Positions 18,369 to 28,044 of a DNA stretch of 64,000 nt are shown piece by piece. The position numbers and the translations under genes were made by a program. Positions within the stretch are counted from its first letter, which is position 1. Each line of letters opens with the position of its first letter. The notes under the pieces were generated by a model. It searched no databases. It was not told the DNA's origin and saw only the letters and a program-made list of their open reading frames with translations. The DNA comes from an uncultured Alistipes sp. (GTDB taxonomy: Bacteria > Bacteroidota > Bacteroidia > Bacteroidales > Rikenellaceae): the NCBI GenBank assembly GCA_944323075.1, contig CALURC010000016.1:711446-775445 (forward strand), given 5' to 3'.

Positions 18369-19583
18369 TTACTGAACAACGTCTTTATAAATACCGCAAA
18401 AATCCAAAATTACTTTGCTTTCATCCAACGGCAATGTCTTAAAAGGATCATGTGCGACAAGGAAAACTACAATATCAGCTCGACTGTATGCCTCTTGATA
18501 ATCAGTTAATTTAAACACCTGATGTTCTTTAATATTTGGCTCCACGATTAAAATATCCGCATTGTTACAACCTTGCATCACTTTAGACACAATATATTTG
18601 GCAGGGCTTTCCCGCAAATCATCTATATTTGGTTTAAATGCCAATCCCATCATTGCCACTTTCGGTTTACGATGAGTCTTCAACTCAAACTGCAACATCG
18701 CATTCTTCACCTTTTCCACACACCAGAATGATTTGTAATTATTTATTCCTCTTGATGTTGCAATCAATTTTGATTCTGCAGGAAAATCCGCTGTAATAAA
18801 ATATGGATCGACCGCTATACAATGTCCTCCGACACCACATCCCGGTTGCAGTATATTTACACGTGGATGCTTGTTTGCAAGTCGAATAAGTTCCCAGACG
18901 TTTATACCTGCTTTATCACAAATAATAGAAAGTTCATTTGCAAAGGCAATCTGCACATCTCGACTCGAGTTCTCCGTCAATTTGCACATTTCTGCCGTAC
19001 GTGCATTGGTTTTATGTAATGTACCCTGCACAAACTGCGAATAAAATTCAATAGCCTTATCCGTAGACTCAGAGTTTATTCCTCCAATCACGCGATCATT
19101 ATGTACAAGTTCATAAATGACATTTCCCGGCAAGACTCGCTCTGGACAATAAGCAATATAGAGCTTATCTTTCAATTCTGGACGCTCTGCATAAATAATT
19201 TCGGTCATTGCCTCTGTTGTTCCGACCGGAGATGTAGACTCTATAACAAACAGATCTCCGGGCTTCAAATACGGTATTACTGAACGAGTTGCTGCTTCCA
19301 CATATGAAACATCAGGTTCATGATCGCCTTTAAATGGCGTCGGTACTACTATAAAATAAGCATCACTTTCTTCCGGTGTGGTTTTTGCATACAACATTCC
19401 GTTTTGCACAACCTCGCGCAACAGATCTTCCATGCCTGGCTCAATAATATGCAATTCCCCGGCATTTGTTTTTGCAACAACCTGCTCATTTATATCGACT
19501 CCTACAATCTGAATTCCATGTTTGGCGGCAATAATAGATGTGGGTAATCCGATGTACCCCAACCCCATAAAACAAGCTTTCAT
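18369..19583 (-). CDS. wecC: UDP-N-acetyl-D-mannosamine dehydrogenase
   Basis: GLGYIGLP, ESTSPVG, YCPERVLPG, KLTENSSRD, GVGGHCI, FKPNIDDLRESP. Confidence 0.96.
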   Translation of the reverse strand: MKACFMGLGYIGLPTSIIAAKHGIQIVGVDINEQVVAKTNAGELHIIEPGMEDLLREVVQNGMLYAKTTPEESDAYFIVVPTPFKGDHEPDVSYVEAATRSVIPYLKPGDLFVIESTSPVGTTEAMTEIIYAERPELKDKLYIAYCPERVLPGNVIYELVHNDRVIGGINSESTDKAIEFYSQFVQGTLHKTNARTAEMCKLTENSSRDVQIAFANELSIICDKAGINVWELIRLANKHPRVNILQPGCGVGGHCIAVDPYFITADFPAESKLIATSRGINNYKSFWCVEKVKNAMLQFELKTHRKPKVAMMGLAFKPNIDDLRESPAKYIVSKVMQGCNNADILIVEPNIKEHQVFKLTDYQEAYSRADIVVFLVAHDPFKTLPLDESKVILDFCGIYKDVVQ

Positions 19584-19709
19584 ATTTAGTTATTTGATTC
19601 TATTTATAATCTATCATAATATACCAGCTTTCTTCCATCTCTTCTATGTTAGGTATTGTTTTAAGGGACAATATCTAAACTTACTTTTCAACAAGCTGCT
19701 ATTAGACGG

Positions 19710-19742
19710 CAAAGTTACGTAATTATTTTCTTTTTCTACAAA
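19710..19742 (-). promoter_or_regulatory. Bacteroidota primary-sigma promoter of the polysaccharide locus
   Basis: On the minus strand, TTTG (19742-19739), 21-nt spacer, TAACTTTG (19717-19710); matches TTTG-N19-21-TAnnTTTG. Confidence 0.8.
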
Positions 19743-19817
19743 GGGCAAACTATCCACATATAAAATACTGCAAAGAAGAAATTAAACCTGTTGAATAACA
19801 TTACAAGAGCTTACCTA

Positions 19818-20444
19818 CTAAGAATTATGCTTCATTTTCAATTTGTATCCTTTTCCTGTCTTTTCAAGAACCCCTTGTCGCACCAGTTGAGCGATTGCGC
19901 GAGATAAGGACGGACGTGTGACCCCAAGAATAAATGCGGTCTGCTGAAGATTCTGAATCGAACCGTTATTTTCAAGATAGCCGATCAATCGAGAGGATAA
20001 CGTCTGCAGAGCAAATTGCTCCAGTTTACGGCTCAAAAAGAGGCTATGATCCGAAAGTACCGCCAAAAAATTGTGTAGAATCGCCCGATCCTGTTCAATA
20101 AGCGACAATACACAGGCTTTATTAATAATCCACAATTTACAGTCCGAATGGGCAATCATAGTGATAGGCAAAATATTCTCTGTACCAAAAAGAAATGCAG
20201 AAGCCAAAACATCCGGTGCCGATAGGGTATCGAGCGTGAACTCACGTCCTTCATCACTGATCATCCGAGCATAAACACTTCCTTCACACAAAACATACAG
20301 CGAACGGCAAACGCTGTTCTGCATGGCAATAAACTCCCCCTTACGATAGGAGCTGAAACGACTGGGATACTTTTCGAGTATACCGTCCACTACCGTCTGA
20401 TCACAACCCCGAAAAAGAAGCGTATCATAAATTCTTCTATCCAT
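19818..20444 (-). CDS. Crp/Fnr-family transcriptional regulator, HcpR-like
   Basis: cNMP-binding-like N-domain (LYVLCEGSV) and C-terminal HTH with GVTRPSLSRAI recognition helix. No FNR N-terminal Cys cluster. Confidence 0.88.
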   Translation of the reverse strand: MDRRIYDTLLFRGCDQTVVDGILEKYPSRFSSYRKGEFIAMQNSVCRSLYVLCEGSVYARMISDEGREFTLDTLSAPDVLASAFLFGTENILPITMIAHSDCKLWIINKACVLSLIEQDRAILHNFLAVLSDHSLFLSRKLEQFALQTLSSRLIGYLENNGSIQNLQQTAFILGVTRPSLSRAIAQLVRQGVLEKTGKGYKLKMKHNS

Positions 20445-20477
20445 AAAACACTATTTTACAACAAAATAGCGGAATAC

Positions 20478-20521
20478 GTAACAAATGTTACACCAAATCG
20501 TATTTCGCCTTTATACTTTTG
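20478..20521 (+). promoter_or_regulatory. Crp/Fnr-type operator plus activator-dependent promoter of the lipoprotein operon
   Basis: Perfect palindrome GTAAC-AAAT-GTTAC (20478-20491) and TACTTTTG -7 box (20514-20521); no TTTG -33 element. Confidence 0.7.
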
Positions 20522-20599
20522 CGCACAAATGAATAATAGACAAATTCCAATATGACTATTGGGAACCGACAAGTACAAATATACAAAACATCGAAACCA

Positions 20600-22459
20600 A
20601 TGAACAGAATTGTGTATGTTTTATCGCTCTGCCTCATTATCTTGAGCTCTTGTCGTTCGGACACATGGATGGAACCCGTTTCTCCGGACAGTGCAAGACA
20701 AGGTATCGCCTTCAAACTGCGATACGAAGAGTTCGAGGAGGCGAGCAACCGATCTGCTTCGCTTCTCGACACAGACTATGATCGTGTAGAGTTCTGCATC
20801 GTCGATGAAAGTGGAGACGTAGTAGACGGAATCAAAGGTCTTTATGATTCGTCCCGTTCCGAGATACGAATCGAAGGACTACGTGAAGGCAATTACCGAC
20901 TTTTGATCTTGGGAATCGTGGGAGACGAAACTGCCGATGGTGTCACAATCACGCCGATACGACACATCGACGAAACTTGGTTACAGTTTCCAGCCGACCT
21001 GCACAAACCGCTCGAAGCAGAATATTTCTACTCACAGACACCTTTTTCGGTTGTCCGGAGCTCCGGTCCCTCTGGAGACGAGCTGACCGCTCAGCTCGAA
21101 GAAGAGGTCGTACAACGCCGGATCATCGGACGCACGGATTTCTCGTTTACATTCAACAATCCGTATGTCGAGAGTGCCCTTTCGACCCGGAATGTCATCC
21201 TGCACGCGCCCCGTTTCCTGACCGATTTTTCCGGATCCGGATCATTTTCGGGAGAAACAGACGGAACGGATGTCTCGATGGATCTCCTCTCGACCTGCTC
21301 TTACCTGTTTCCTCCCACCACCGAAGGAAACCCTTTAGGCGGAGAGATCGAACTGACCACCCGCAACTATCGCGGAGAGACGGTACGCCGTACGTACGAC
21401 TTCACGTTGCGGGAGATCACACCGAACCGTATCGGAAAGATCCACACGACACTCATACATCCGGATGATCCCTCCGGCACGGCGTTCATTACCGAACAGG
21501 TGCTCAAAACGGCCGACTTGAGCTATATCCTGCAAGACGACGAGCCGCACTCCATCTACACGAACTCCTCGTTGCGCTCATTCAACACGTCTGCACCGCT
21601 TCAGGTATCCATCACGGAAGAGGGACAACTTCACGTCCGGTTCTACTCTCCGCGCGATCTGAGCGATGTGCTGATTCAGGCTCTGATTCCTTCGGTAAGC
21701 AGTGAGTATATCGATCTGGCCTATTTTGACCGTATTCCCGCATTTGCCGATTTTTACGGCGAGCTGCGCTCCGTGCAACACAAAACTTTTTTCCGCTCGG
21801 AGTCGGGACGCATCGTCGAGACCGGTCCGATTCTCCTCTCCGAGCTGACAGCTGCAACTTTCCGCATCACCTCGAACGATCCCTTCTGGAGTAAGCTCGA
21901 AGCCATCGAACATGGGTGGAACATAAGTTTCTCTCTTTACGGAGGGAATCCTGAACTTCCGGACGGAGGCCCGGTAGGCAACTGGATGGGAATCCGACCG
22001 GTACACTGTCGGGAAGCCGTAGCCCTGTTCCTGAACTTCACCTACATGATCGACATGCCCGAACATGAAGAGATTCTCCGTACGAACGTTGACCGTCTCT
22101 ACGGCAACGGAGGTCCAACAGACAAAGTTTCCGTCGAGACAGTCCTGCAACAGATGCGACAACGTCGGACTTTACAGGTCGGATTGGTCTATCCGGGTAA
22201 CGGTGTCATTGGACTCGGGGGTGGAAATGTATTCGGAGCCTACCAGCAGGCTTGGTTCCAACACTATTTCAACACCTACTCCTGCGAGATTCTTTTCCAT
22301 GAGTTGGGACACGTCATGGGATACAACCACAGCAGCTCATTCACCTATGGGCCGTGGGCACAGGAGCTGATGAATCGCTTCTATGTCGAACACATCACCG
22401 AAATGCCCATCGATTCGCCATCTTACCTGAAAAGCGAACAGAATCCTAATAAATACTAA
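20600..22459 (+). CDS. Lipoprotein with pilin-like N-terminus and C-terminal metzincin-type zinc metalloprotease motif
   Basis: Start at ATG 20600 gives MNRIVYVLSLCLIILSS-C. HELGHVMGYNH fits HExxHxxGxxH, followed by ...QELM. Confidence 0.75.
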   Translation: MNRIVYVLSLCLIILSSCRSDTWMEPVSPDSARQGIAFKLRYEEFEEASNRSASLLDTDYDRVEFCIVDESGDVVDGIKGLYDSSRSEIRIEGLREGNYRLLILGIVGDETADGVTITPIRHIDETWLQFPADLHKPLEAEYFYSQTPFSVVRSSGPSGDELTAQLEEEVVQRRIIGRTDFSFTFNNPYVESALSTRNVILHAPRFLTDFSGSGSFSGETDGTDVSMDLLSTCSYLFPPTTEGNPLGGEIELTTRNYRGETVRRTYDFTLREITPNRIGKIHTTLIHPDDPSGTAFITEQVLKTADLSYILQDDEPHSIYTNSSLRSFNTSAPLQVSITEEGQLHVRFYSPRDLSDVLIQALIPSVSSEYIDLAYFDRIPAFADFYGELRSVQHKTFFRSESGRIVETGPILLSELTAATFRITSNDPFWSKLEAIEHGWNISFSLYGGNPELPDGGPVGNWMGIRPVHCREAVALFLNFTYMIDMPEHEEILRTNVDRLYGNGGPTDKVSVETVLQQMRQRRTLQVGLVYPGNGVIGLGGGNVFGAYQQAWFQHYFNTYSCEILFHELGHVMGYNHSSSFTYGPWAQELMNRFYVEHITEMPIDSPSYLKSEQNPNKY

Positions 22460-22472
22460 AAAACCGACGACA

Positions 22473-24722
22473 ATGAACTATCTGAAATATTTGAATATCG
22501 TATTTTGCGGCATACTTCTCCTGTCGGGATGCCATAAATCTCCGGAGAGCGACCTGCCGACACCCGATGCGGGAACGATCTCTGTCCGCTTTATCCCTGA
22601 AGAACCGGCTACCAAATCCTTCACTCTATCCAAAACAGCACAGGGAGAGACGAATGATCAAGCAATCGGACAGGTCATCGGATACCGTTTTACACAAGGC
22701 TTATTCCGTGAATCGATTATTGGCGAACCGTCCGGAACGGATGGAGTCTACACGTTTCATCCGAGCTCACGTTTGGGAGAGATCTACTTTATTGCAAACG
22801 GACCTTCGGAGATGTCCAGCGAACTGCAACCGGATGTATCCACACAGGATGAATTTCTGGAACTTTACGCCACGGACGAAGAGATGACCGCATCGGGATT
22901 CACGATGACCGGGAAGGCCTCCTTGGACGAGCTCACCTCAACACCAGTGACCATTCGGCTTCGCCGTACGGTTGCCCGCATCGACCTTGTAGTACAAGAG
23001 CGAGGAGTAGCCGTCCACGAGGTAACCATACGGGGCATTGCGGATCGTGGATACCTCAACGAACGTAACAACGTGAGCAATCCGGCGGCATCGGAGAGAA
23101 CGGACTTCCTCAAAGAGTACGCCGACACTCCGTTGACAAACTCCCGGGAAACGCTGTTGTACCTCTGTGAACAGACGGGAGACGTCTTGAGCGTGGAGGT
23201 GATCGCCGACATCGATGGAGGCTTGCACCGGATGACCGCAACTTTCCCCTCGGAGATCCTTCGCAACCGGATATACACCATACAGGTGCATGGGAACGGA
23301 GCCTCCGCCTCTCTCTCCGTTGTCGCCGACAATTGGGAAGAGGGTGATTCAGTAGAGTCTTCTCCCGACCTCAAAGGAGTGATCGACGTCGAAGCTTCGG
23401 TCCTTCCCGAATCGGTTCGGATCAATTCATCCTGCGATTCGGTTTATATCTCTTCCCAAGTAGTAGAATTTCAGTTGGTACTGCGGGCTGAAGCCGAATC
23501 GGATGTAGCGATAGAGGGTACCGTACGGGGCGTAACGACACAGGTTGAGACACTGACCAAGTCCCTGCAACCGGTCGCTGCCGTTTCAGTAGCAAGCGAT
23601 CGACGGCTTCCCGGAGAGAAACAGGCCTACCTCTACCTGAACCTTCACCGCGACGGACTCTACTCCGGACGCATCGTGCTGGTCTTCGAACCGAATCCGG
23701 TTGTCATTACCGGAGCGATCACCTTCGATGAAAACGGCATCTGCGATTTTGGGAAATACGTCGACGGAGAACTGGGCCGGATGAAACTTCCGGAGGGGAA
23801 AACCGCCCGTTTAGAGTTCGACTCGGGAGAGGATGCATGGATGAAACTTGTCGACGATCAGGGCGAACTGCGCATCCTCGGAGGCTGGAAACCCAACGAT
23901 CCGAAAGCCGACGGACGAACCCAAGAGGGACGAATCATCATTGCGGATGCCGACGGATCGAACTCGGAAAGTTACTCTCTCCGTAGGCGTAACTGGGGTC
24001 TTCCGGTGGTCGAGATCGACGGTACATGGTGGTGTAAATACAACCTCCGGGGAAGCGTCAAAAAGTTCGAAGACCAGATTTCGATTCAGGCCGATCCTGC
24101 TTCGGACCGTGAACTGGCCGATTACCTGAACACGTGCGACGAGGACGAATTGCTTCGATTAATGGGAGATCAATATCAGGGAGGTACACAACAGGGACTA
24201 CCGTTAGGGTACGATGGAACCGCTTTTCTGTACGAAGGGATGCGCTCTTCAGGCGGAAACTTCGGCACTCTGGACCCCACCCTCATGGCTCCCGACGGGT
24301 ATCAGATTCCGGACTACAACGACTACGCCTTTTTCAGTGCCAACAACAATTTCAACCTCGGAGGAGTCGGTTCCCGAAGCTATAAGAATGCAGCGGGACA
24401 GGAGATTACCGTACGGATTATCGAACGGGATGTCACTTTCTTGGGACAACATTACGGGAACGTATCGTTTTATGAATTTCAAACCGAAACAGGATACTGG
24501 GTTCTATACGGTCTCGGACACCAGTGGAACACCACACCCGGCAACATTTCGACCAAGATGCTGTTGCTCGCGACCTACGGCAACAGTGCAAACTGCTGGG
24601 TGATGGAGGGCTATGCCCAGAGCGACCGTCCCAACCAAAACTGGTTGAAATTCATGAACCAGAACTCAACCAAAACCCGAACGATCCGCTGCATCAAGAG
24701 TCCGGTAGAGTATATTTATTAA
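22473..24722 (+). CDS. Type V pilin/adhesin-like lipoprotein (FimB/Mfa2-like N-terminus, Fib_succ_major-like C-terminus)
   Basis: LLLSG-C lipobox, PATKS, IYFIAN, LRRTVARIDL, ILRNRIYTI, APDGYQIPDYNDY, RTIRCIK. Confidence 0.65.
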   Translation: MNYLKYLNIVFCGILLLSGCHKSPESDLPTPDAGTISVRFIPEEPATKSFTLSKTAQGETNDQAIGQVIGYRFTQGLFRESIIGEPSGTDGVYTFHPSSRLGEIYFIANGPSEMSSELQPDVSTQDEFLELYATDEEMTASGFTMTGKASLDELTSTPVTIRLRRTVARIDLVVQERGVAVHEVTIRGIADRGYLNERNNVSNPAASERTDFLKEYADTPLTNSRETLLYLCEQTGDVLSVEVIADIDGGLHRMTATFPSEILRNRIYTIQVHGNGASASLSVVADNWEEGDSVESSPDLKGVIDVEASVLPESVRINSSCDSVYISSQVVEFQLVLRAEAESDVAIEGTVRGVTTQVETLTKSLQPVAAVSVASDRRLPGEKQAYLYLNLHRDGLYSGRIVLVFEPNPVVITGAITFDENGICDFGKYVDGELGRMKLPEGKTARLEFDSGEDAWMKLVDDQGELRILGGWKPNDPKADGRTQEGRIIIADADGSNSESYSLRRRNWGLPVVEIDGTWWCKYNLRGSVKKFEDQISIQADPASDRELADYLNTCDEDELLRLMGDQYQGGTQQGLPLGYDGTAFLYEGMRSSGGNFGTLDPTLMAPDGYQIPDYNDYAFFSANNNFNLGGVGSRSYKNAAGQEITVRIIERDVTFLGQHYGNVSFYEFQTETGYWVLYGLGHQWNTTPGNISTKMLLLATYGNSANCWVMEGYAQSDRPNQNWLKFMNQNSTKTRTIRCIKSPVEYIY

Positions 24723-24742
24723 CTAAGTCCGCTTTCTGAACC

Positions 24743-27052
24743 ATGAAAAAGATCAATAAAATGAGTATAAAGATTCGTGCAATAATAACCTGCGGAATAG
24801 TTCTCCTTGCAGGCATGAACTCCTGTTCGAAATCGGAGTCCACTACGGAACCGCCCCACATACCGCCCTCCGATTCAAGCACATTCGTCACCCTTCAGAC
24901 GACCGACTACGAGGTTGCCGGCGAGGAGATCGCCGGGGAGAACGAACTGCAAGAGCTCCGGGCCTACCGGTTCGAGAACGGACATCTGGTCCAAATTCTC
25001 GACCGTCCGACCACCGGCTCCGAGGGCTATGGGTTCCGACTCGATCGCCCGGTCGGCACGCTCTACGTCGTATCGAACACAAACGACATCTCCGCCCTCA
25101 ACAACCTGCAAGGCTCCGGGATTTCCGAGCAGGAGTGGCTTAAACTTACGACCGGCACGAAGGAGGGGCTACCGATCCGATTCTTCTCCGGCAGTACCTC
25201 CCTTTCGGGAAGCTTGTCCAAAGTGGTCAAAATGACCCGCGGATTTGCCCGCTTCGATCTACAGATCCGCACTTCGGGAGAGACAGCAATCGAATCTCTC
25301 ACTTTGGGAAACTGTACGCTCTCAACCCCTCTCTTTGCCGATACTGATTCGGGCTCCACGGCTCCCCAATCGGGTAATCTGACGATCCAGCCCGACAAGC
25401 CGTACACCCAGGACACTCCGGGCTTCGCGTACGTTTACGAACAGACGGACACCGAGGCAACGCTTTTTGCCGAAGCGATCATCGATGGAGAACGGACCCA
25501 CCTCGAAACAAAACTTCCGGAAATCATCCGAAGAAACTGCATATATGTCGTAAGCGTAACGAAAGAGGAGTCCGACGCGGCTGTTCAACTGACTGTCGAA
25601 GCATGGCAGGAGGGCGACCAGATCGGAATGCACCCCTGTTTGGACGGCACCATCACGGTGGATACCGACCGGTCGGAGCTCCCCGAAACCGTTACCGTTA
25701 CCGACAGCGGAACAAAGCTGATTCTACCGCACAACCTTACAGACTTTCTTTTGGCTTTAGATTGCGACGATGAGCTGGAGCTTCTTCCACCCGACAACGA
25801 CGATTTGACCATCGAGCCACTGGGCTCCGTACAGGAGACGTATGCCGTAAATCTGTTTCGGATCCAGAAGCCGCTGTTCGCACCCGGGATGCCCACCCGA
25901 ACGGTTGAGCTCAAATTCCGACGGAAAGGGTTAAACAACGTCTATCCCGAAGACCGAATTTTGGTCACCCTTTCGGCCAATCCTGTCGATCTCGAAGGGG
26001 AAATCTCCTTCGACACGAAGAGCTACTCTTTCGACTTCGATCGCTACGTCGACAATGAGCTGGGACGTTTCACCGTGCCGTCCAACAAAAAACTCACGGT
26101 AGAGTTCGAGGCCGGTGAAGATCCGTGGATCAAACTCGCTCCCAGTGACGAAGACAGTCACACACTCCGCGTACTGGGCGGATGGAAGCCGAACGATCCG
26201 ACAGCCGACGGCCGGATTCAACGGGCCACACTCGTCATCTGCAATGCAACCGACGGTTCTGAACGGGAAGAGTATCAGATCTCTCGACGCAATTACGGTC
26301 TGCCGGTCACATGGTTCCATGGTGTCTGGTGGTGCAAATACAACGCTCGGGGCAACTCCAAAAGTTTCGACGATCAGATTCTCTGCGCCTCCGATCCAGC
26401 AGTTGCTGCGGGTAAAAGCGTTCTCGACTACCTCCGGGACTGCTCGCCCGAGGAGTTCTACGATCTGTGGGGTTGGGCCTACCAAGGCGATAGCGGAATC
26501 GGCCTGCGGGTGGTCGAACAGAACGACACAGTCGTGATGGAGGGCTTCTCATCATCCGTTTCTGCCCACATCAACAAGCTTCCGGCCGACGCCTTGGCTC
26601 CCGACGGATATGAACTTCCCTCGATGGAGGAGTTCAACCGGATGTTCGACGCAACCGACTATGTCTGGATGATGTGGAGTGGCTCTCACCTGCTGCGAAA
26701 CCCGTGGGAAGGGCACAGCAAGGTCATCCGGGAGCAACGTCGCCGCAACGACCTAAGTGTTGGCACAGTACAGACTCCCGACCTGATCTACATCGGCATG
26801 TCGAGTCCCGACTTTCCGGACTTCGAACCGGTCACTTGGTACGGTCCCGGAGCCCAATGGAATGCGGACGGCATAAAACACGCCAACCACTACAACAACA
26901 TCTTGTTTGCAGTACATTCACCGGAAGGCACGGGATGGTACATGGCCGGCAACATGTCTGCTCTCCACCTGCAGAAAAACGGTGCGGGAAATAAAGATAC
27001 CCGTATCCTTCGTTTCAAAAAATCGCCAGTAGAGTATATATATGGAGAATAA
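24743..27052 (+). CDS. Type V pilin/adhesin-like lipoprotein, paralog of 22473..24722
   Basis: AGMNS-C lipobox, LYVVSN, MTRGFARFDL, IRRNCIYVV, APDGYELPSMEEF, RILRFKK. Several blocks shared with the upstream gene. Confidence 0.65.
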   Translation: MKKINKMSIKIRAIITCGIVLLAGMNSCSKSESTTEPPHIPPSDSSTFVTLQTTDYEVAGEEIAGENELQELRAYRFENGHLVQILDRPTTGSEGYGFRLDRPVGTLYVVSNTNDISALNNLQGSGISEQEWLKLTTGTKEGLPIRFFSGSTSLSGSLSKVVKMTRGFARFDLQIRTSGETAIESLTLGNCTLSTPLFADTDSGSTAPQSGNLTIQPDKPYTQDTPGFAYVYEQTDTEATLFAEAIIDGERTHLETKLPEIIRRNCIYVVSVTKEESDAAVQLTVEAWQEGDQIGMHPCLDGTITVDTDRSELPETVTVTDSGTKLILPHNLTDFLLALDCDDELELLPPDNDDLTIEPLGSVQETYAVNLFRIQKPLFAPGMPTRTVELKFRRKGLNNVYPEDRILVTLSANPVDLEGEISFDTKSYSFDFDRYVDNELGRFTVPSNKKLTVEFEAGEDPWIKLAPSDEDSHTLRVLGGWKPNDPTADGRIQRATLVICNATDGSEREEYQISRRNYGLPVTWFHGVWWCKYNARGNSKSFDDQILCASDPAVAAGKSVLDYLRDCSPEEFYDLWGWAYQGDSGIGLRVVEQNDTVVMEGFSSSVSAHINKLPADALAPDGYELPSMEEFNRMFDATDYVWMMWSGSHLLRNPWEGHSKVIREQRRRNDLSVGTVQTPDLIYIGMSSPDFPDFEPVTWYGPGAQWNADGIKHANHYNNILFAVHSPEGTGWYMAGNMSALHLQKNGAGNKDTRILRFKKSPVEYIYGE

Positions 27053-27074
27053 AACTCCCTTGATCTTTAGCTAT

Positions 27075-27111
27075 AAGGGCGAACCATTCGACACCGGACA
27101 GGTTCGCCCTT
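27075..27111. terminator. Hairpin between the convergent lipoprotein operon and araC-like gene
   Basis: AAGGGCGAACC...GGTTCGCCCTT, 11-bp perfect stem. Confidence 0.75.
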
Positions 27112-27153
27112 CATTTCACTTCCTGTGAAACAACCATTAAAACCAGAAAAGAT

Positions 27154-28044
27154 TCACGTCCGATCTGGATGTCGATATCTTACGACATATACATTACGAT
27201 ATGTACAGGGCGTTTGCTGCGTACACTTTTTGAACACCGAGTTAAAATGCGACAAATTGCGAAATCCGCATTCGTAAGCTATTTCTGAAATCGGTTTATT
27301 CGTATTAGCCATCAATGTACAGGCATAGGCTACACGCAACTCGTTCAAAAACGTCACAATGGTTTTTCCCGTAATACTTTTAAAACGACGGCAAAGAGCG
27401 GATCGATTCATGCATACGTTTTGAGCCAAGATATCAAGCGATATCGGCTGTTGATAATGAGTATTCAAATAAGAAATAACCTTCGAACATACCGGATGTA
27501 AATTTTCTGAATGATGCTGAAATCGGGATGATGCCAAAAACATATATTTGGATCGTCCCAAAAGGTCCAAAATCCGATATAACGTCAGAACCTTTTCAAT
27601 GCCTTCTGCTTCCGCCATCGATCGAATCAATCCGATTATTTCATCGCGATCCTGAATCTGAAAACCGATTCCTCGATCGGCATCCTTCAACACTTTGTTA
27701 ACCGTCCGAAACTCGGGCATCCGTTCATACTGTTCCGGTAAAATATGCTCGCCAAATTGGACGTATATCGATCTGCATCTCTCCCGACAAGTAGCCTTAT
27801 AGAAGCGGTCTTCACTCAAATAAAAGTGTGGTAATCCTTTTCCAAAGAGAGCAAGATGCCCCTGCGAAAATTTACCATTGTAATCTCCGCAAAAACAGAT
27901 CCCGTCACCCTCTTCAATCAAAACAAGCTCATACTCCGGATGGAAATGAAGCGGAGCCGTAAAGTGTGCCGCCTCGAAAACAGCGACCTTAAATGAGCTG
28001 TCACGATCAGGAACGACCTGCTCGAATTCCATTTGAGTCATCAC
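27154..28044 (-). CDS. AraC-family regulator with cupin-like sensor domain
   Basis: PLHFHPEYEL, RVAYACTLM, IAYECGFRNLSHFNSVFKK. Confidence 0.92.
   Translation of the reverse strand: MMTQMEFEQVVPDRDSSFKVAVFEAAHFTAPLHFHPEYELVLIEEGDGICFCGDYNGKFSQGHLALFGKGLPHFYLSEDRFYKATCRERCRSIYVQFGEHILPEQYERMPEFRTVNKVLKDADRGIGFQIQDRDEIIGLIRSMAEAEGIEKVLTLYRILDLLGRSKYMFLASSRFQHHSENLHPVCSKVISYLNTHYQQPISLDILAQNVCMNRSALCRRFKSITGKTIVTFLNELRVAYACTLMANTNKPISEIAYECGFRNLSHFNSVFKKCTQQTPCTYRNVYVVRYRHPDRT

What the first reader, a model, noticed from the sequence alone, without database searches (positions are those of the whole stretch)
19818..27111. Candidate undescribed system: HcpR-like regulator controlling a protease-bearing type V pilus operon
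Seen: a Crp/Fnr gene divergent from three tightly spaced lipoprotein genes (13 and 20 nt gaps), a perfect operator-like palindrome between them, and a terminator closing the unit. Gene 1 has a metzincin zinc motif; genes 2 and 3 are pilin/adhesin-like paralogs. Known: HcpR-type regulators usually control hcp and nitrosative-stress genes, and type V pili assemble from lipoprotein precursors. No hcp is present in this window. Inference: a stress-, redox- or gas-inducible surface appendage carrying a protease plus adhesins.
Basis: partly seen in the sequence, partly recalled or inferred. Interest (0 to 1): 0.85.

Follow-up and report, generated by a model that had tools for sequence, protein, structure and literature searches.

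The report
Sensor-switched pilin-scaffold protease and lectin operon
A gut Alistipes carries an unannotated but widely conserved operon for three surface lipoproteins built on the pilus-subunit fold, one bearing a zinc protease and two bearing lectin-like heads; it appears to be switched on by its own relative of the nitric-oxide sensor HcpR, in a genome that lacks HcpR's usual target gene.

Summary
A Crp/Fnr gene (19818-20444, minus) lies divergent from three lipoprotein genes separated by 13- and 20-nt gaps. A perfect palindrome, GTAACAAATGTTAC (20478-20491), lies between them, and a strong hairpin (27075-27111) closes the unit.

The regulator link is the best-supported part. The palindrome is the published HcpR2 box. 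In 51 of 51 related loci it sits exactly 22 nt upstream of a TAnnTTTG -7 element on the operon strand, which is class II activator geometry. Regulator orthologues form one clade and are found only next to this operon, and 38 of 41 such genomes lack hcp.

Gene 1 is a pilin-fold N-terminal half (Mfa2/FimB-like by Foldseek) fused to an intact metzincin related to PDB 9tpb. Genes 2 and 3 are paralogues with the same scaffold, Ig-like domains and a distant FISUMP (lectin-like) head.

A true type V pilus is not shown: the operon has no stalk or anchor gene, and genes 2 and 3 have no conserved Arg cleavage site. A nitric oxide/heme signal is inferred from homology and a conserved Met.

I found no paper describing the system. 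I class it as a new variant of known kinds, of moderately high interest.

The parts
19818..20444 (-). Crp/Fnr-family regulator of the HcpR2 type (208 aa), belonging to an operon-dedicated clade. Met61 corresponds to HcpR Met68, and the recognition helix is R177-P178-S179..R182.
   Evidence: Pfam cNMP_binding and HTH_Crp_2. Best PDB hits are P. gingivalis HcpR 9day (E 1.5e-22) and 5v30. The clade has SH-aLRT 100. Residue conservation: Met61 in 51/52, helix residues in 52/52.
20478..20491 (.). Operator: perfect palindrome GTAACAAATGTTAC, matching the HcpR2 consensus GTAACnnnnGTTAC. Its centre is at 20484.5.
   Evidence: Sequence. Consensus from PMC1274295. It is the only intergenic exact copy in the genome. 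Conserved in 51 loci.
20514..20521 (+). Bacteroidota-type -7 promoter element TACTTTTG (TAnnTTTG) of the operon. It lies 22 nt after the box, which puts the box centre at about -41.5 to -43.5.
   Evidence: The 22-nt spacing is exact in 51/51 loci while the spacer sequence varies. The start site itself is inferred, not mapped.
20576..20583 (-). Candidate -7 element of the regulator's own promoter (TATATTTG on the minus strand). The regulator's leader would then run antisense across the operon promoter and box.
   Evidence: A minus-strand TAnnTTTG is present between the operon's -7 element and the g1 ATG in 42/51 loci, and almost never left of the box. Inference only.
20600..22459 (+). g1: 619-aa lipoprotein. 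Residues about 35-300 form a type-V-pilin-like (Mfa2/FimB-like) scaffold and residues about 310-619 form a metzincin unit (HELGHVMGYNH, Met591). An Arg (R51) is conserved in the loop after the first strand.
   Evidence: AF2 pLDDT 84. The 14 best Foldseek hits, and 17 of the best 19, are type V pilin-family structures: 3gf8, 5nfi Mfa2, 4qdg, 3pay, 6kmf FimA. PDB 9tpb 'metzincin' matches at E 3e-12, and 4.6e-15 with a profile. Invariant residues. R51.
22473..24722 (+). g2: 749-aa lipoprotein. It has the pilin-like scaffold (about 35-290), two Ig-like beta domains (about 300-510) and a FISUMP-like (lectin-like) C-terminal domain (about 512-749). The C-terminus ...RCIKSPVEYIY is invariant.
   Evidence: AF2 pLDDT 81. 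3pay matches at probability 1.0. hhalign to the g1 N-terminus gives 91.8%, E 7e-7. FimD_tip_adhes E 3e-4. PF09603 is matched by 20/35 family members, best E 4e-5. C-terminal tails.
24743..27052 (+). g3: 769-aa paralogue of g2 with the same architecture.
   Evidence: BLASTP gives 30% identity over the full length, E 8e-89. It is conserved as the last gene of the module in related loci.
27075..27111 (+). Terminator-like hairpin (11-bp G+C-rich stem) between the convergent g3 and AraC genes.
   Evidence: -22.3 kcal/mol, z = -4.72, 0 of 200 shuffles as stable. The U-tract is weak.

Best explanation
This is a four-gene unit in an Alistipes (Rikenellaceae) genome.

**Regulator.** It is a dedicated paralogue of the heme/nitric-oxide sensor HcpR. 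It binds the palindrome GTAACAAATGTTAC, centred about 42 bp upstream of the operon's start site, and activates transcription as a class II Crp/Fnr activator. The promoter has a -7 element, and the box sits where a -33 element would otherwise be.

**Operon.** It encodes three lipoproteins that share a roughly 290-aa scaffold with the type V pilin (Mfa2/FimB-like) fold.
- g1 carries an intact metzincin zinc protease.
- g2 and g3 carry Ig-like spacers and a FISUMP-type lectin-like head.

**Likely function.** The products are exported to the cell surface (or vesicles) as a protease-plus-adhesin set. They are produced when the regulator's sensor domain is triggered, most likely by nitric oxide or nitrosative stress through heme, that is, by host inflammation.

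**Shown versus inferred.**
- Shown: gene layout, folds, catalytic residues, box identity, and conserved box-promoter geometry and co-occurrence.
- Inferred: activation rather than repression, the start site, the signal, surface exposure and substrates.

**My odds.**
- The regulator controls the operon through the box: about 0.85.
- The signal is nitric oxide via heme: about 0.5.
- The proteins are surface lipoproteins: about 0.7.
- They polymerise into a real pilus: about 0.15-0.2.
For: **Box and promoter**
- The box equals the HcpR2 consensus (PMC1274295).
- The regulator has the R-P-S..R helix in 52/52 orthologues. These match the Pro/Ser/Arg residues that AlphaFold3 modelling predicts B. 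thetaiotaomicron HcpR uses to contact DNA (PMC13370916).
- hcp-linked HcpRs of relatives with the same helix carry the same box or a one-mismatch version.
- Box, 22 nt, then TAnnTTTG is found in 51/51 loci despite an unconserved spacer.

**Co-occurrence**
- Orthologues at 55% identity or more occur only beside the operon: in 5 of 61 relatives, in 48 of 80 genome loci, and in 3 of 3 regulators picked blind.
- The regulator clade has SH-aLRT 100.
- Met61, equivalent to HcpR Met68 (needed for heme binding and activation, PMC12750200), is kept in 51/52.
- hcp is absent from the genome and from 38 of 41 regulator-plus-operon genomes.

**Proteins**
- Folds and domains.
- Lipoboxes and acidic residues after the Cys.
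Against: - The start site and the direction of regulation are therefore unproven.
- The box also lies about 40 nt upstream of the regulator's own ATG, so it could serve autoregulation as well.
- About 30 of 80 related operons lack the regulator and box, so the operon does not need it.
- The regulator is only about 30% identical to proven HcpRs, and the second heme-side residue (His149) is not conserved. The ligand could differ.
- Pfam and NCBIfam matches for the pilin and FISUMP parts are below curated cut-offs for the window's own proteins.
- The fold evidence comes from predicted models searched as whole chains.
Confidence: 0.62

Rival explanations
1. It is a genuine, minimal type V pilus, or a tip module for one. 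After the lipidated N-terminal strand is removed, subunits would join by donor-strand exchange, displaying a protease and lectins on a fibre. That fibre might be built on stalk and anchor pilins encoded elsewhere.
For: - All three proteins have the pilin fold.
- g1 has a conserved Arg (R51) in the loop after the first strand, where FimA, Mfa1 and BfrT are cut (BfrT R43 in 10.1101/2024.11.15.621889).
- Both families have strikingly invariant C-terminal tails that could be donor strands.
- Four-gene versions add a bare roughly 295-aa scaffold protein.
- The genome has canonical FimA and Mfa2 loci elsewhere.
Against: - The operon has no stalk or anchor gene.
- g2 and g3 have no conserved Arg/Lys in the loop.
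- g1's best fold matches are anchor-type (Mfa2, DUF1812), which do not polymerise.
- No multimer model could be run.
Confidence: 0.18
2. The box serves mainly the regulator's own leftward promoter, as autoregulation or a roadblock. The operon would then be constitutive or controlled otherwise, and the adjacency would reflect co-transfer only.
For: - The box centre is only about 40 nt from the regulator's ATG.
- A candidate minus-strand -7 element lies to the right of the box in 42/51 loci, so the regulator's transcript would cross the box.
- Operons without the regulator exist.
Against: - The invariant 22-nt spacing is to the operon-strand -7 element, not to any minus-strand element; those lie at distances of 42-123 nt.
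- Class II geometry is typical of HcpR/Fnr activation.
- The regulator clade is never found without the operon.
Confidence: 0.1
3. The regulator senses something other than nitric oxide, for example O2, CO, heme availability or a small metabolite. The operon would then be a nutrient- or niche-responsive surface programme rather than a nitrosative-stress one.
For: - The regulator is only about 30% identical to hcp-linked HcpRs and sits in a separate clade.
- The His149 position is variable (N/E/H/K).
- The host genomes mostly lack hcp.
- Crp/Fnr sensor domains change ligand readily (established knowledge).
Against: - Met61, equivalent to the functionally critical Met68, is kept in 51/52.
- The closest solved relatives are HcpR itself.
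Confidence: 0.35
4. The g1 metzincin is a dedicated maturation protease for its partner proteins. It would cut the acidic loop after strand 1 of g2 and g3, in place of the Arg-protease of Porphyromonas, rather than act on host or food proteins.
For: - g1 is always encoded first and is always followed by g2/g3-type genes.
- g2 and g3 lack the Arg site but have a long, low-confidence acidic loop at 46-59.
Against: - There is no direct evidence.
- The loop sequence is not conserved.
- A lipid-anchored, pilin-scaffolded protease looks more like a displayed enzyme.
- The 9tpb relative is a stand-alone 356-aa enzyme.
Confidence: 0.12

Closest known systems
HcpR (HcpR2 branch of Crp/Fnr), as in Porphyromonas gingivalis, Bacteroides thetaiotaomicron and Thermotoga TM1171
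   Same: - Two-domain Crp/Fnr architecture.
- The best solved relatives are HcpR 9day/5v30 and 1o5l.
- The R-P-S..R recognition helix and the GTAAC-N4-GTTAC box.
- The heme-linked Met is conserved.
- The gene is divergent from its target.
   Different: - The target is not hcp, and the genome has no hcp. [quoted passage not shown]
- It forms a separate clade at about 30% identity.
- The ligand is untested.
Type V pilins and tip adhesins (FimA/Mfa1-5 of P. gingivalis; BfrT/BthT lectin-tipped pilins of Bacteroides)
   Same: - Lipoprotein precursors.
- A two-domain pilin fold at the N-terminus.
- BfrT-type tip pilins also carry a C-terminal lectin-fold head (10.1101/2024.11.15.621889).
- g1 has an Arg at the usual cleavage loop.
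   Different: - No stalk or anchor genes in the operon.
- No conserved Arg in g2 or g3.
- A protease head is not described for pilins in the papers I could search.
- No diversity-generating retroelement.
- Polymerisation is unproven.
PDB 9tpb/9tpc, 'Metallopeptidase | metzincin' (356 aa)
   Same: It is homologous to g1 residues about 310-583, including the HExxHxxGxxH site and the preceding beta domain (E 3e-12; 4.6e-15 with a profile).
   Different: - It is a stand-alone enzyme without the pilin scaffold.
- Its organism and function are not given by the tool.
- No paper was found.
FISUMP / Fib_succ_major domain proteins (PF09603)
   Same: The C-terminal approximately 240 aa of g2 align end to end with the model (1-187 of 187). 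20 of 35 family members match, best E 4e-5.
   Different: - The match is below Pfam's gathering score for the window's own proteins.
- It is a distant branch.
- Ligand binding is untested.

Membership tests
HcpR (HcpR2-type Crp/Fnr regulator) | cNMP-binding-like sensor domain plus a Crp-type helix-turn-helix; closest relatives are HcpR proteins | tested here: met
   Pfam PF00027 and PF13545. PDB HcpR 9day E 1.5e-22, 5v30 E 6.7e-17.
HcpR (HcpR2-type Crp/Fnr regulator) | Recognition helix with Arg-Pro (Pro in place of CRP Glu181) and a cognate GTAACnnnnGTTAC box upstream of the target | tested here: met
   RPSLSR is invariant in 52/52. The box is at 20478-20491 and in 51 loci. Consensus from PMC1274295.
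HcpR (HcpR2-type Crp/Fnr regulator) | Regulates and co-occurs with hcp (hybrid cluster protein) | tested here: not met
   No PF03063 match in the own genome. hcp is present in 0 of 5 and 3 of 36 regulator-plus-operon genomes.
HcpR (HcpR2-type Crp/Fnr regulator) | Heme binding through Met68 and activation by nitric oxide | not testable with these tools
   Met61 aligns with Met68 and is kept in 51/52. This is consistent with heme binding but is not proof.
Type V pilus (FimA/Mfa superfamily system) | Subunits made as lipoprotein precursors (signal peptide plus lipobox Cys) | tested here: met
   C18 (g1) and C20 (g2) are invariant. g3 has MNSC.
Type V pilus (FimA/Mfa superfamily system) | Two-domain pilin fold | tested here: met
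   - g1: the 14 best Foldseek hits, and 17 of the best 19, are type V pilin-family structures, probability 1.0, TM(target) 0.36-0.50.
- g2: 3pay at probability 1.0.
- g1 and g2 N-termini are homologous.
- The bare paralogue matches Mfa_like_1 at E 2.8e-5.
Type V pilus (FimA/Mfa superfamily system) | Conserved Arg/Lys cleavage site after the first strand, whose removal opens the groove | tested here: inconclusive
   g1 has R51 in about 80% of homologues, with a shifted Arg in the rest. g2 and g3 have no conserved basic residue. Cleavage itself was not tested.
Type V pilus (FimA/Mfa superfamily system) | Operon encodes anchor and stalk subunits with tip or accessory subunits | tested here: not met
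   The operon has only g1-g3. Canonical Mfa2 (E 1.4e-57) and FimA-like genes lie on other contigs.
Type V pilus (FimA/Mfa superfamily system) | Polymerisation by C-terminal donor-strand exchange | not testable with these tools
   Invariant C-terminal tails were noted. No multimer prediction was available.
Metzincin metallopeptidases | HExxHxxGxxH zinc site | tested here: met
   HELGHVMGYNH, with H567, E568, H571, G574 and H577 invariant in 33 sequences.
Metzincin metallopeptidases | Conserved Met-turn below the zinc site | tested here: inconclusive
   Invariant M591 lies 14 residues after the third His. Its structural position was not inspected because no coordinates were accessible.
Metzincin metallopeptidases | Homology to a solved metzincin | tested here: met
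   9tpb/9tpc 'metzincin', E 3e-12 and 4.6e-15.
FISUMP (Fib_succ_major, PF09603) | Match to the family model above its curated cut-off | tested here: inconclusive
   Window g2 scores E 0.33 but aligns end to end. 20 of 35 homologues match at E<=1, best 4.1e-5.

The most novel reading that the evidence does not exclude
An inflammation-sensing switch deploys a self-contained, gingipain-independent mini-pilus. A heme/nitric-oxide-sensing HcpR paralogue would turn on three or four pilin-fold lipoproteins that assemble by donor-strand exchange through their invariant C-terminal tails. The resulting short surface fibre would carry a zinc protease and lectins. The pilin-fused metzincin might itself mature its partners.
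Probability: 0.12. Interest if true: 0.85.

Novelty: new variant of a known kind. Interest (0 to 1): 0.62.

Why it matters
HcpR-type regulators are regarded as dedicated to hcp and nitrosative-stress detoxification. Here a whole clade of them has been rewired to a surface protease-plus-lectin operon. The clade occurs in Alistipes, Barnesiella, Odoribacter, Cryptobacteroides and other Bacteroidales, mostly from MAGs whose names indicate poultry-gut sources, and most of these genomes have no hcp.

If the signal is nitric oxide, this would be a direct route by which commensal Bacteroidales change their surface, and attack or bind host or dietary glycoproteins, when the gut is inflamed.

The operon is unannotated: it has no Pfam domains and its products are labelled 'hypothetical protein'. 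It is nevertheless present in hundreds of protein clusters. Fusion of a protease to the type V pilin fold is not described in the papers I could search.

Cultured carriers make the hypothesis directly testable: Barnesiella viscericola DSM 18177 has the regulator, and Phocaeicola plebeius DSM 17135 lacks it.

Tried and rejected
- **Whole-chain Foldseek of g2:** swamped by Ig and cadherin arrays (TM 0.1-0.2). Only 3pay was informative.
- **PDB searches for g2:** sequence and profile searches found nothing.
- **Literature:** no paper was found for 9tpb or for pilin-protease fusions.
- **Empty-site comparison within the genus:** failed because the flanking AraC gene exists only in the two closest genomes.
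- **Rfam:** no known RNA in 19500-27400.
- **Second regulon member:** the other exact box (contig C1:184766) lies about 400 nt inside a 966-aa ORF and is probably chance.
- **'Degenerate remnant of an hcp locus':** rejected, because the regulators form an old, separate clade at about 30% identity.
- **Leftward polysaccharide genes as the conserved target:** rejected, because the genes on that side of the regulator differ between loci.


Full report
**1. Observation**

The ORF map shows a 208-aa Crp/Fnr gene at 19818-20444 on the minus strand. Three plus-strand genes follow:
- g1, 20600-22459. An upstream ATG at 20552 is not supported by homologues.
- g2, 22473-24722.
- g3, 24743-27052.

The gaps are 13 and 20 nt. 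A convergent AraC gene follows at 27154-28044. Each of g1-g3 starts with a signal peptide and lipobox Cys, and the Cys is invariant in homologues. g2 and g3 are full-length paralogues (30% identity, E 8e-89).

The 155-nt divergent gap holds the perfect palindrome GTAACAAATGTTAC at 20478-20491. An 11-bp G+C stem at 27075-27111 folds at -22.3 kcal/mol (z = -4.7).

**2. The organism and the spread of the module**

The nearest records are Candidatus Alistipes pullicola and A. merdigallinarum (96% identity), so the window is from an Alistipes (Rikenellaceae) of the chicken-gut type. The genome is 2.54 Mb, 47.3% G+C and 95.8% complete.

The metzincin gene, followed by two g2/g3-type genes, recurs in all 80 genome loci fetched, wherever the contig is long enough. 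Carriers include Alistipes, Rikenella, Tidjanibacter, Barnesiella, Odoribacter, Cryptobacteroides, Phocaeicola plebeius DSM 17135, Mediterranea massiliensis, Bacteroides ilei, B. gallinaceum, Caecibacteroides and a Prevotella MAG.

Within the genus the module is patchy: 3 of 17 genomes including the window's own, and 7 of 61 relatives in all. Hundreds of protein clusters exist in metagenomes. None has a Pfam domain, and where a source names the protein it is 'hypothetical protein'.

Many loci are four-gene versions. They have an extra 295-300-aa protein that is a bare copy of the g2/g3 N-terminal scaffold (hhalign 99.9%, E 1e-36; Mfa_like_1 E 2.8e-5).

**3. The regulator**

It has cNMP_binding and HTH_Crp_2 domains. 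Its best solved relatives are P. gingivalis HcpR (9day E 1.5e-22, 5v30) and Thermotoga TM1171 (1o5l).

Rodionov et al. (PMC1274295) defined the HcpR2 branch by two features:
- the box GTAACnnnnGTTAC;
- Pro in place of CRP Glu181.

The window's regulator reads ...TRPSLSR..., and the box is an exact match. A 2026 preprint on B. thetaiotaomicron HcpR reports heme binding and nitrite-induced, HcpR-dependent hcp expression. Its AlphaFold3 models predict DNA contact through Pro187, Ser188 and Arg191 (PMC13370916). The same three residues are invariant in 52 of 52 orthologues here.

Met61 aligns with HcpR Met68, the residue needed for heme coordination and activation (PMC12750200). It is kept in 51 of 52 orthologues. 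The His149 position is variable, as it is among HcpRs.

**4. Is the regulator tied to the operon?**

Yes, by four independent lines.

(a) Among 61 relatives, a copy with at least 56% identity exists only in the five genomes that have the operon. It is always divergent from the operon and always has the box. All other Crp/Fnr hits are 35% identical or less, including the true hcp-adjacent HcpRs at about 30%.

(b) Of 80 loci found through g1, 48 have the regulator upstream and divergent.

(c) Three regulator orthologues were chosen by regulator similarity alone (61-71% identity, including Barnesiella viscericola DSM 18177). All three sit divergent to a 616-635 / about 750 / (about 300) / about 760-aa module. 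The genes on their other side differ.

(d) The 53 operon-linked regulators form one clade (SH-aLRT 100), apart from the hcp-linked and other Crp/Fnr proteins of the same order.

**5. Promoter geometry**

In all 51 loci that have the box (the window plus 50), a Bacteroidota -7 element TAnnTTTG lies exactly 22 nt downstream of it on the operon strand. The 22 intervening bases are not conserved.

With a start site 5-7 nt after the -7 element (inferred, not mapped), the box centre falls at -41.5 to -43.5. This is the class II activation position of Crp/Fnr proteins, where a -33 element would otherwise sit. It is the strongest evidence that the regulator activates the operon.

hcp-linked HcpRs of relatives that share the RPSL helix carry the same box or a one-mismatch version next to hcp. 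Those with RQAL, as in P. gingivalis, do not. This validates the helix-box pairing within this order.

In the window's genome the only other exact box lies inside a coding region. The predicted regulon is therefore this operon alone.

**6. hcp**

The genome has no Prismane/hcp gene. hcp is present in 0 of 5 and 3 of 36 regulator-plus-operon genomes. By comparison it is present in:
- 7 of 14 genomes with the operon but no regulator;
- 22 of 61 relatives overall.

The contrast with all other genomes is significant (Fisher p = 8e-5). Against same-family genomes it is not (p = 0.09), so the safe statement is only that this regulator does not need hcp. That breaks the rule that HcpR2 members always co-occur with hcp.

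**7. The proteins**

*g1.* The AF2 model has pLDDT 84. The 14 best Foldseek hits, and 17 of the best 19, are type V pilin-family structures. They cover about 270-320 residues, the N-terminal half, and include:
- 3gf8 (DUF1812);
- 5nfi (Mfa2 anchor);
- 4qdg, 3pay, 3liu, 4h40, 3t2l and 3up6;
- 6kmf (FimA pilus).

The C-terminal half matches PDB 9tpb/9tpc 'metzincin' (E 3e-12; 4.6e-15 with a profile). H567, E568, H571, G574, H577 and M591 are invariant, so the enzyme should be active.

*g2.* The model has pLDDT 81. Its parts are:
- a pilin-like N-terminal module, supported by 3pay at probability 1.0, FimD_tip_adhes E 3e-4, Mfa2/FimA/Mfa_like_1 hits in several homologues, and hhalign to the g1 N-terminus at 91.8%, E 7e-7 over 273 columns;
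- two beta-sandwich domains;
- a C-terminal domain that aligns end to end with Fib_succ_major (20 of 35 homologues, best E 4e-5).

From memory, and unchecked, FISUMP belongs with the C-type-lectin-like folds. That would parallel the lectin-tipped pilins BfrT and BthT.

*Surface export.* Acidic residues follow the lipid Cys in 31 of 33 (g1 family) and 34 of 35 (g2 family) sequences. This is consistent with the Bacteroidota surface-export signal as I know it, but was not tested.

**8. Pilus or not?**

For a pilus:
- the pilin fold;
- a conserved Arg (R51) in g1's post-strand-1 loop;
- invariant C-terminal tails..SPSYLNSxxNPNxY in g1 and ..RC[IV]K[ST]PVEY[IM]Y in g2/g3;
- the bare scaffold protein in four-gene loci.

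Against a pilus:
- no stalk or anchor gene in the operon, while canonical Mfa2 (E 1.4e-57) and FimA-like genes sit elsewhere;
- no conserved basic residue in the g2/g3 loop;
- g1's best fold matches are of the non-polymerising anchor type.

I rate a true polymer at 0.15-0.2. 'Pilin-scaffolded surface lipoproteins' is the safer description.

**9. Comparison with earlier notes of this scan**

First-reader notes on this genome, and follow-up reports on three other genomes, describe the same module and reach similar conclusions. I treated them as leads. I re-derived the box position, folds, FISUMP link and four-gene variant independently here.

**10. Verdict**

The finding is real and the regulatory reading is well supported by comparative genomics. 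The 'type V pilus' and 'nitric oxide/redox-inducible' readings remain inferences.

The components are of known kinds: a class II Crp/Fnr activator, the type V pilin fold, a metzincin and a FISUMP domain. I found no description of three things:
- an HcpR-clade regulator dedicated to a surface operon in hcp-less genomes;
- a pilin-protease fusion;
- the operon as a conserved unit.

I class it as a new variant of a known kind, interest about 0.6.

Noticed in passing
window 20576-20583 (minus strand); 42 of 51 related loci: A conserved minus-strand TAnnTTTG (TACAAATATAC on the plus strand) lies just upstream of the g1 ATG. If it is the regulator's promoter, the regulator's roughly 125-nt leader is antisense to the operon's -7 element and box. 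This resembles the SnoA RNA, which lies antisense to the hcp promoter in B. thetaiotaomicron (PMC13370916).
   Followed up: partly
window 22400-22459 and 24680-24722 / 27010-27052 (C-termini of g1, g2, g3): The extreme C-terminal tails are almost invariant across families at 50-60% overall identity: g1 ..SPSYLNSxxNPNxY and g2/g3 ..RC[IV]K[ST]PVEY[IM]Y. They could be donor strands or sorting or recognition signals. Unexplained.
   Followed up: partly
L133:3599-4501, L135:3755-4642 and about half of the 80 loci: Many related operons are four-gene versions with an extra bare 295-300-aa scaffold protein between the two lectin-headed genes. The window has the three-gene version.
   Followed up: yes
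window 19818-27052: G+C differs sharply within the unit: 52-55% for g1-g3, 43% for the regulator, 32% for the intergenic gap, 47.3% for the genome and 32-40% for the polysaccharide island to the left. This was not examined further.
   Followed up: no
L133/L134 (Barnesiella viscericola-type contigs), positions 1-795: A tyrosine integrase gene (Arm-DNA-bind_5, Phage_integrase) lies directly beyond the last gene of the module. Together with the patchy distribution within genera, this hints that the cassette moves horizontally.
   Followed up: no
L081, L085, L088, L091-L098, L102, L105-L108, L111, L113-L116, L119-L125, L128-L130: In Bacteroides, Phocaeicola, Mediterranea and Caecibacteroides the same module has no HcpR-like regulator and no box, and the upstream neighbours vary. 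Half of these genomes (7 of 14) have hcp.
   Followed up: partly
genome contig C1:184766 (outside the window): The only other exact GTAAC-N4-GTTAC in the genome lies about 400 nt inside a 966-aa lipoprotein ORF (184369-187269). It is probably chance.
   Followed up: partly
L126 (uncultured Prevotella sp.), L089, L117: There are three exceptions to the pairing. L126 has the regulator (55% identity) but no exact box. L089 and L117 have the box and -7 arrangement, but no regulator was detected at my thresholds.
   Followed up: no
PDB 9tpb/9tpc: A solved 356-aa 'metzincin' is the only structure related to g1's protease half. No paper mentioning it is in the searchable library, and its source organism is not given.
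   Followed up: partly
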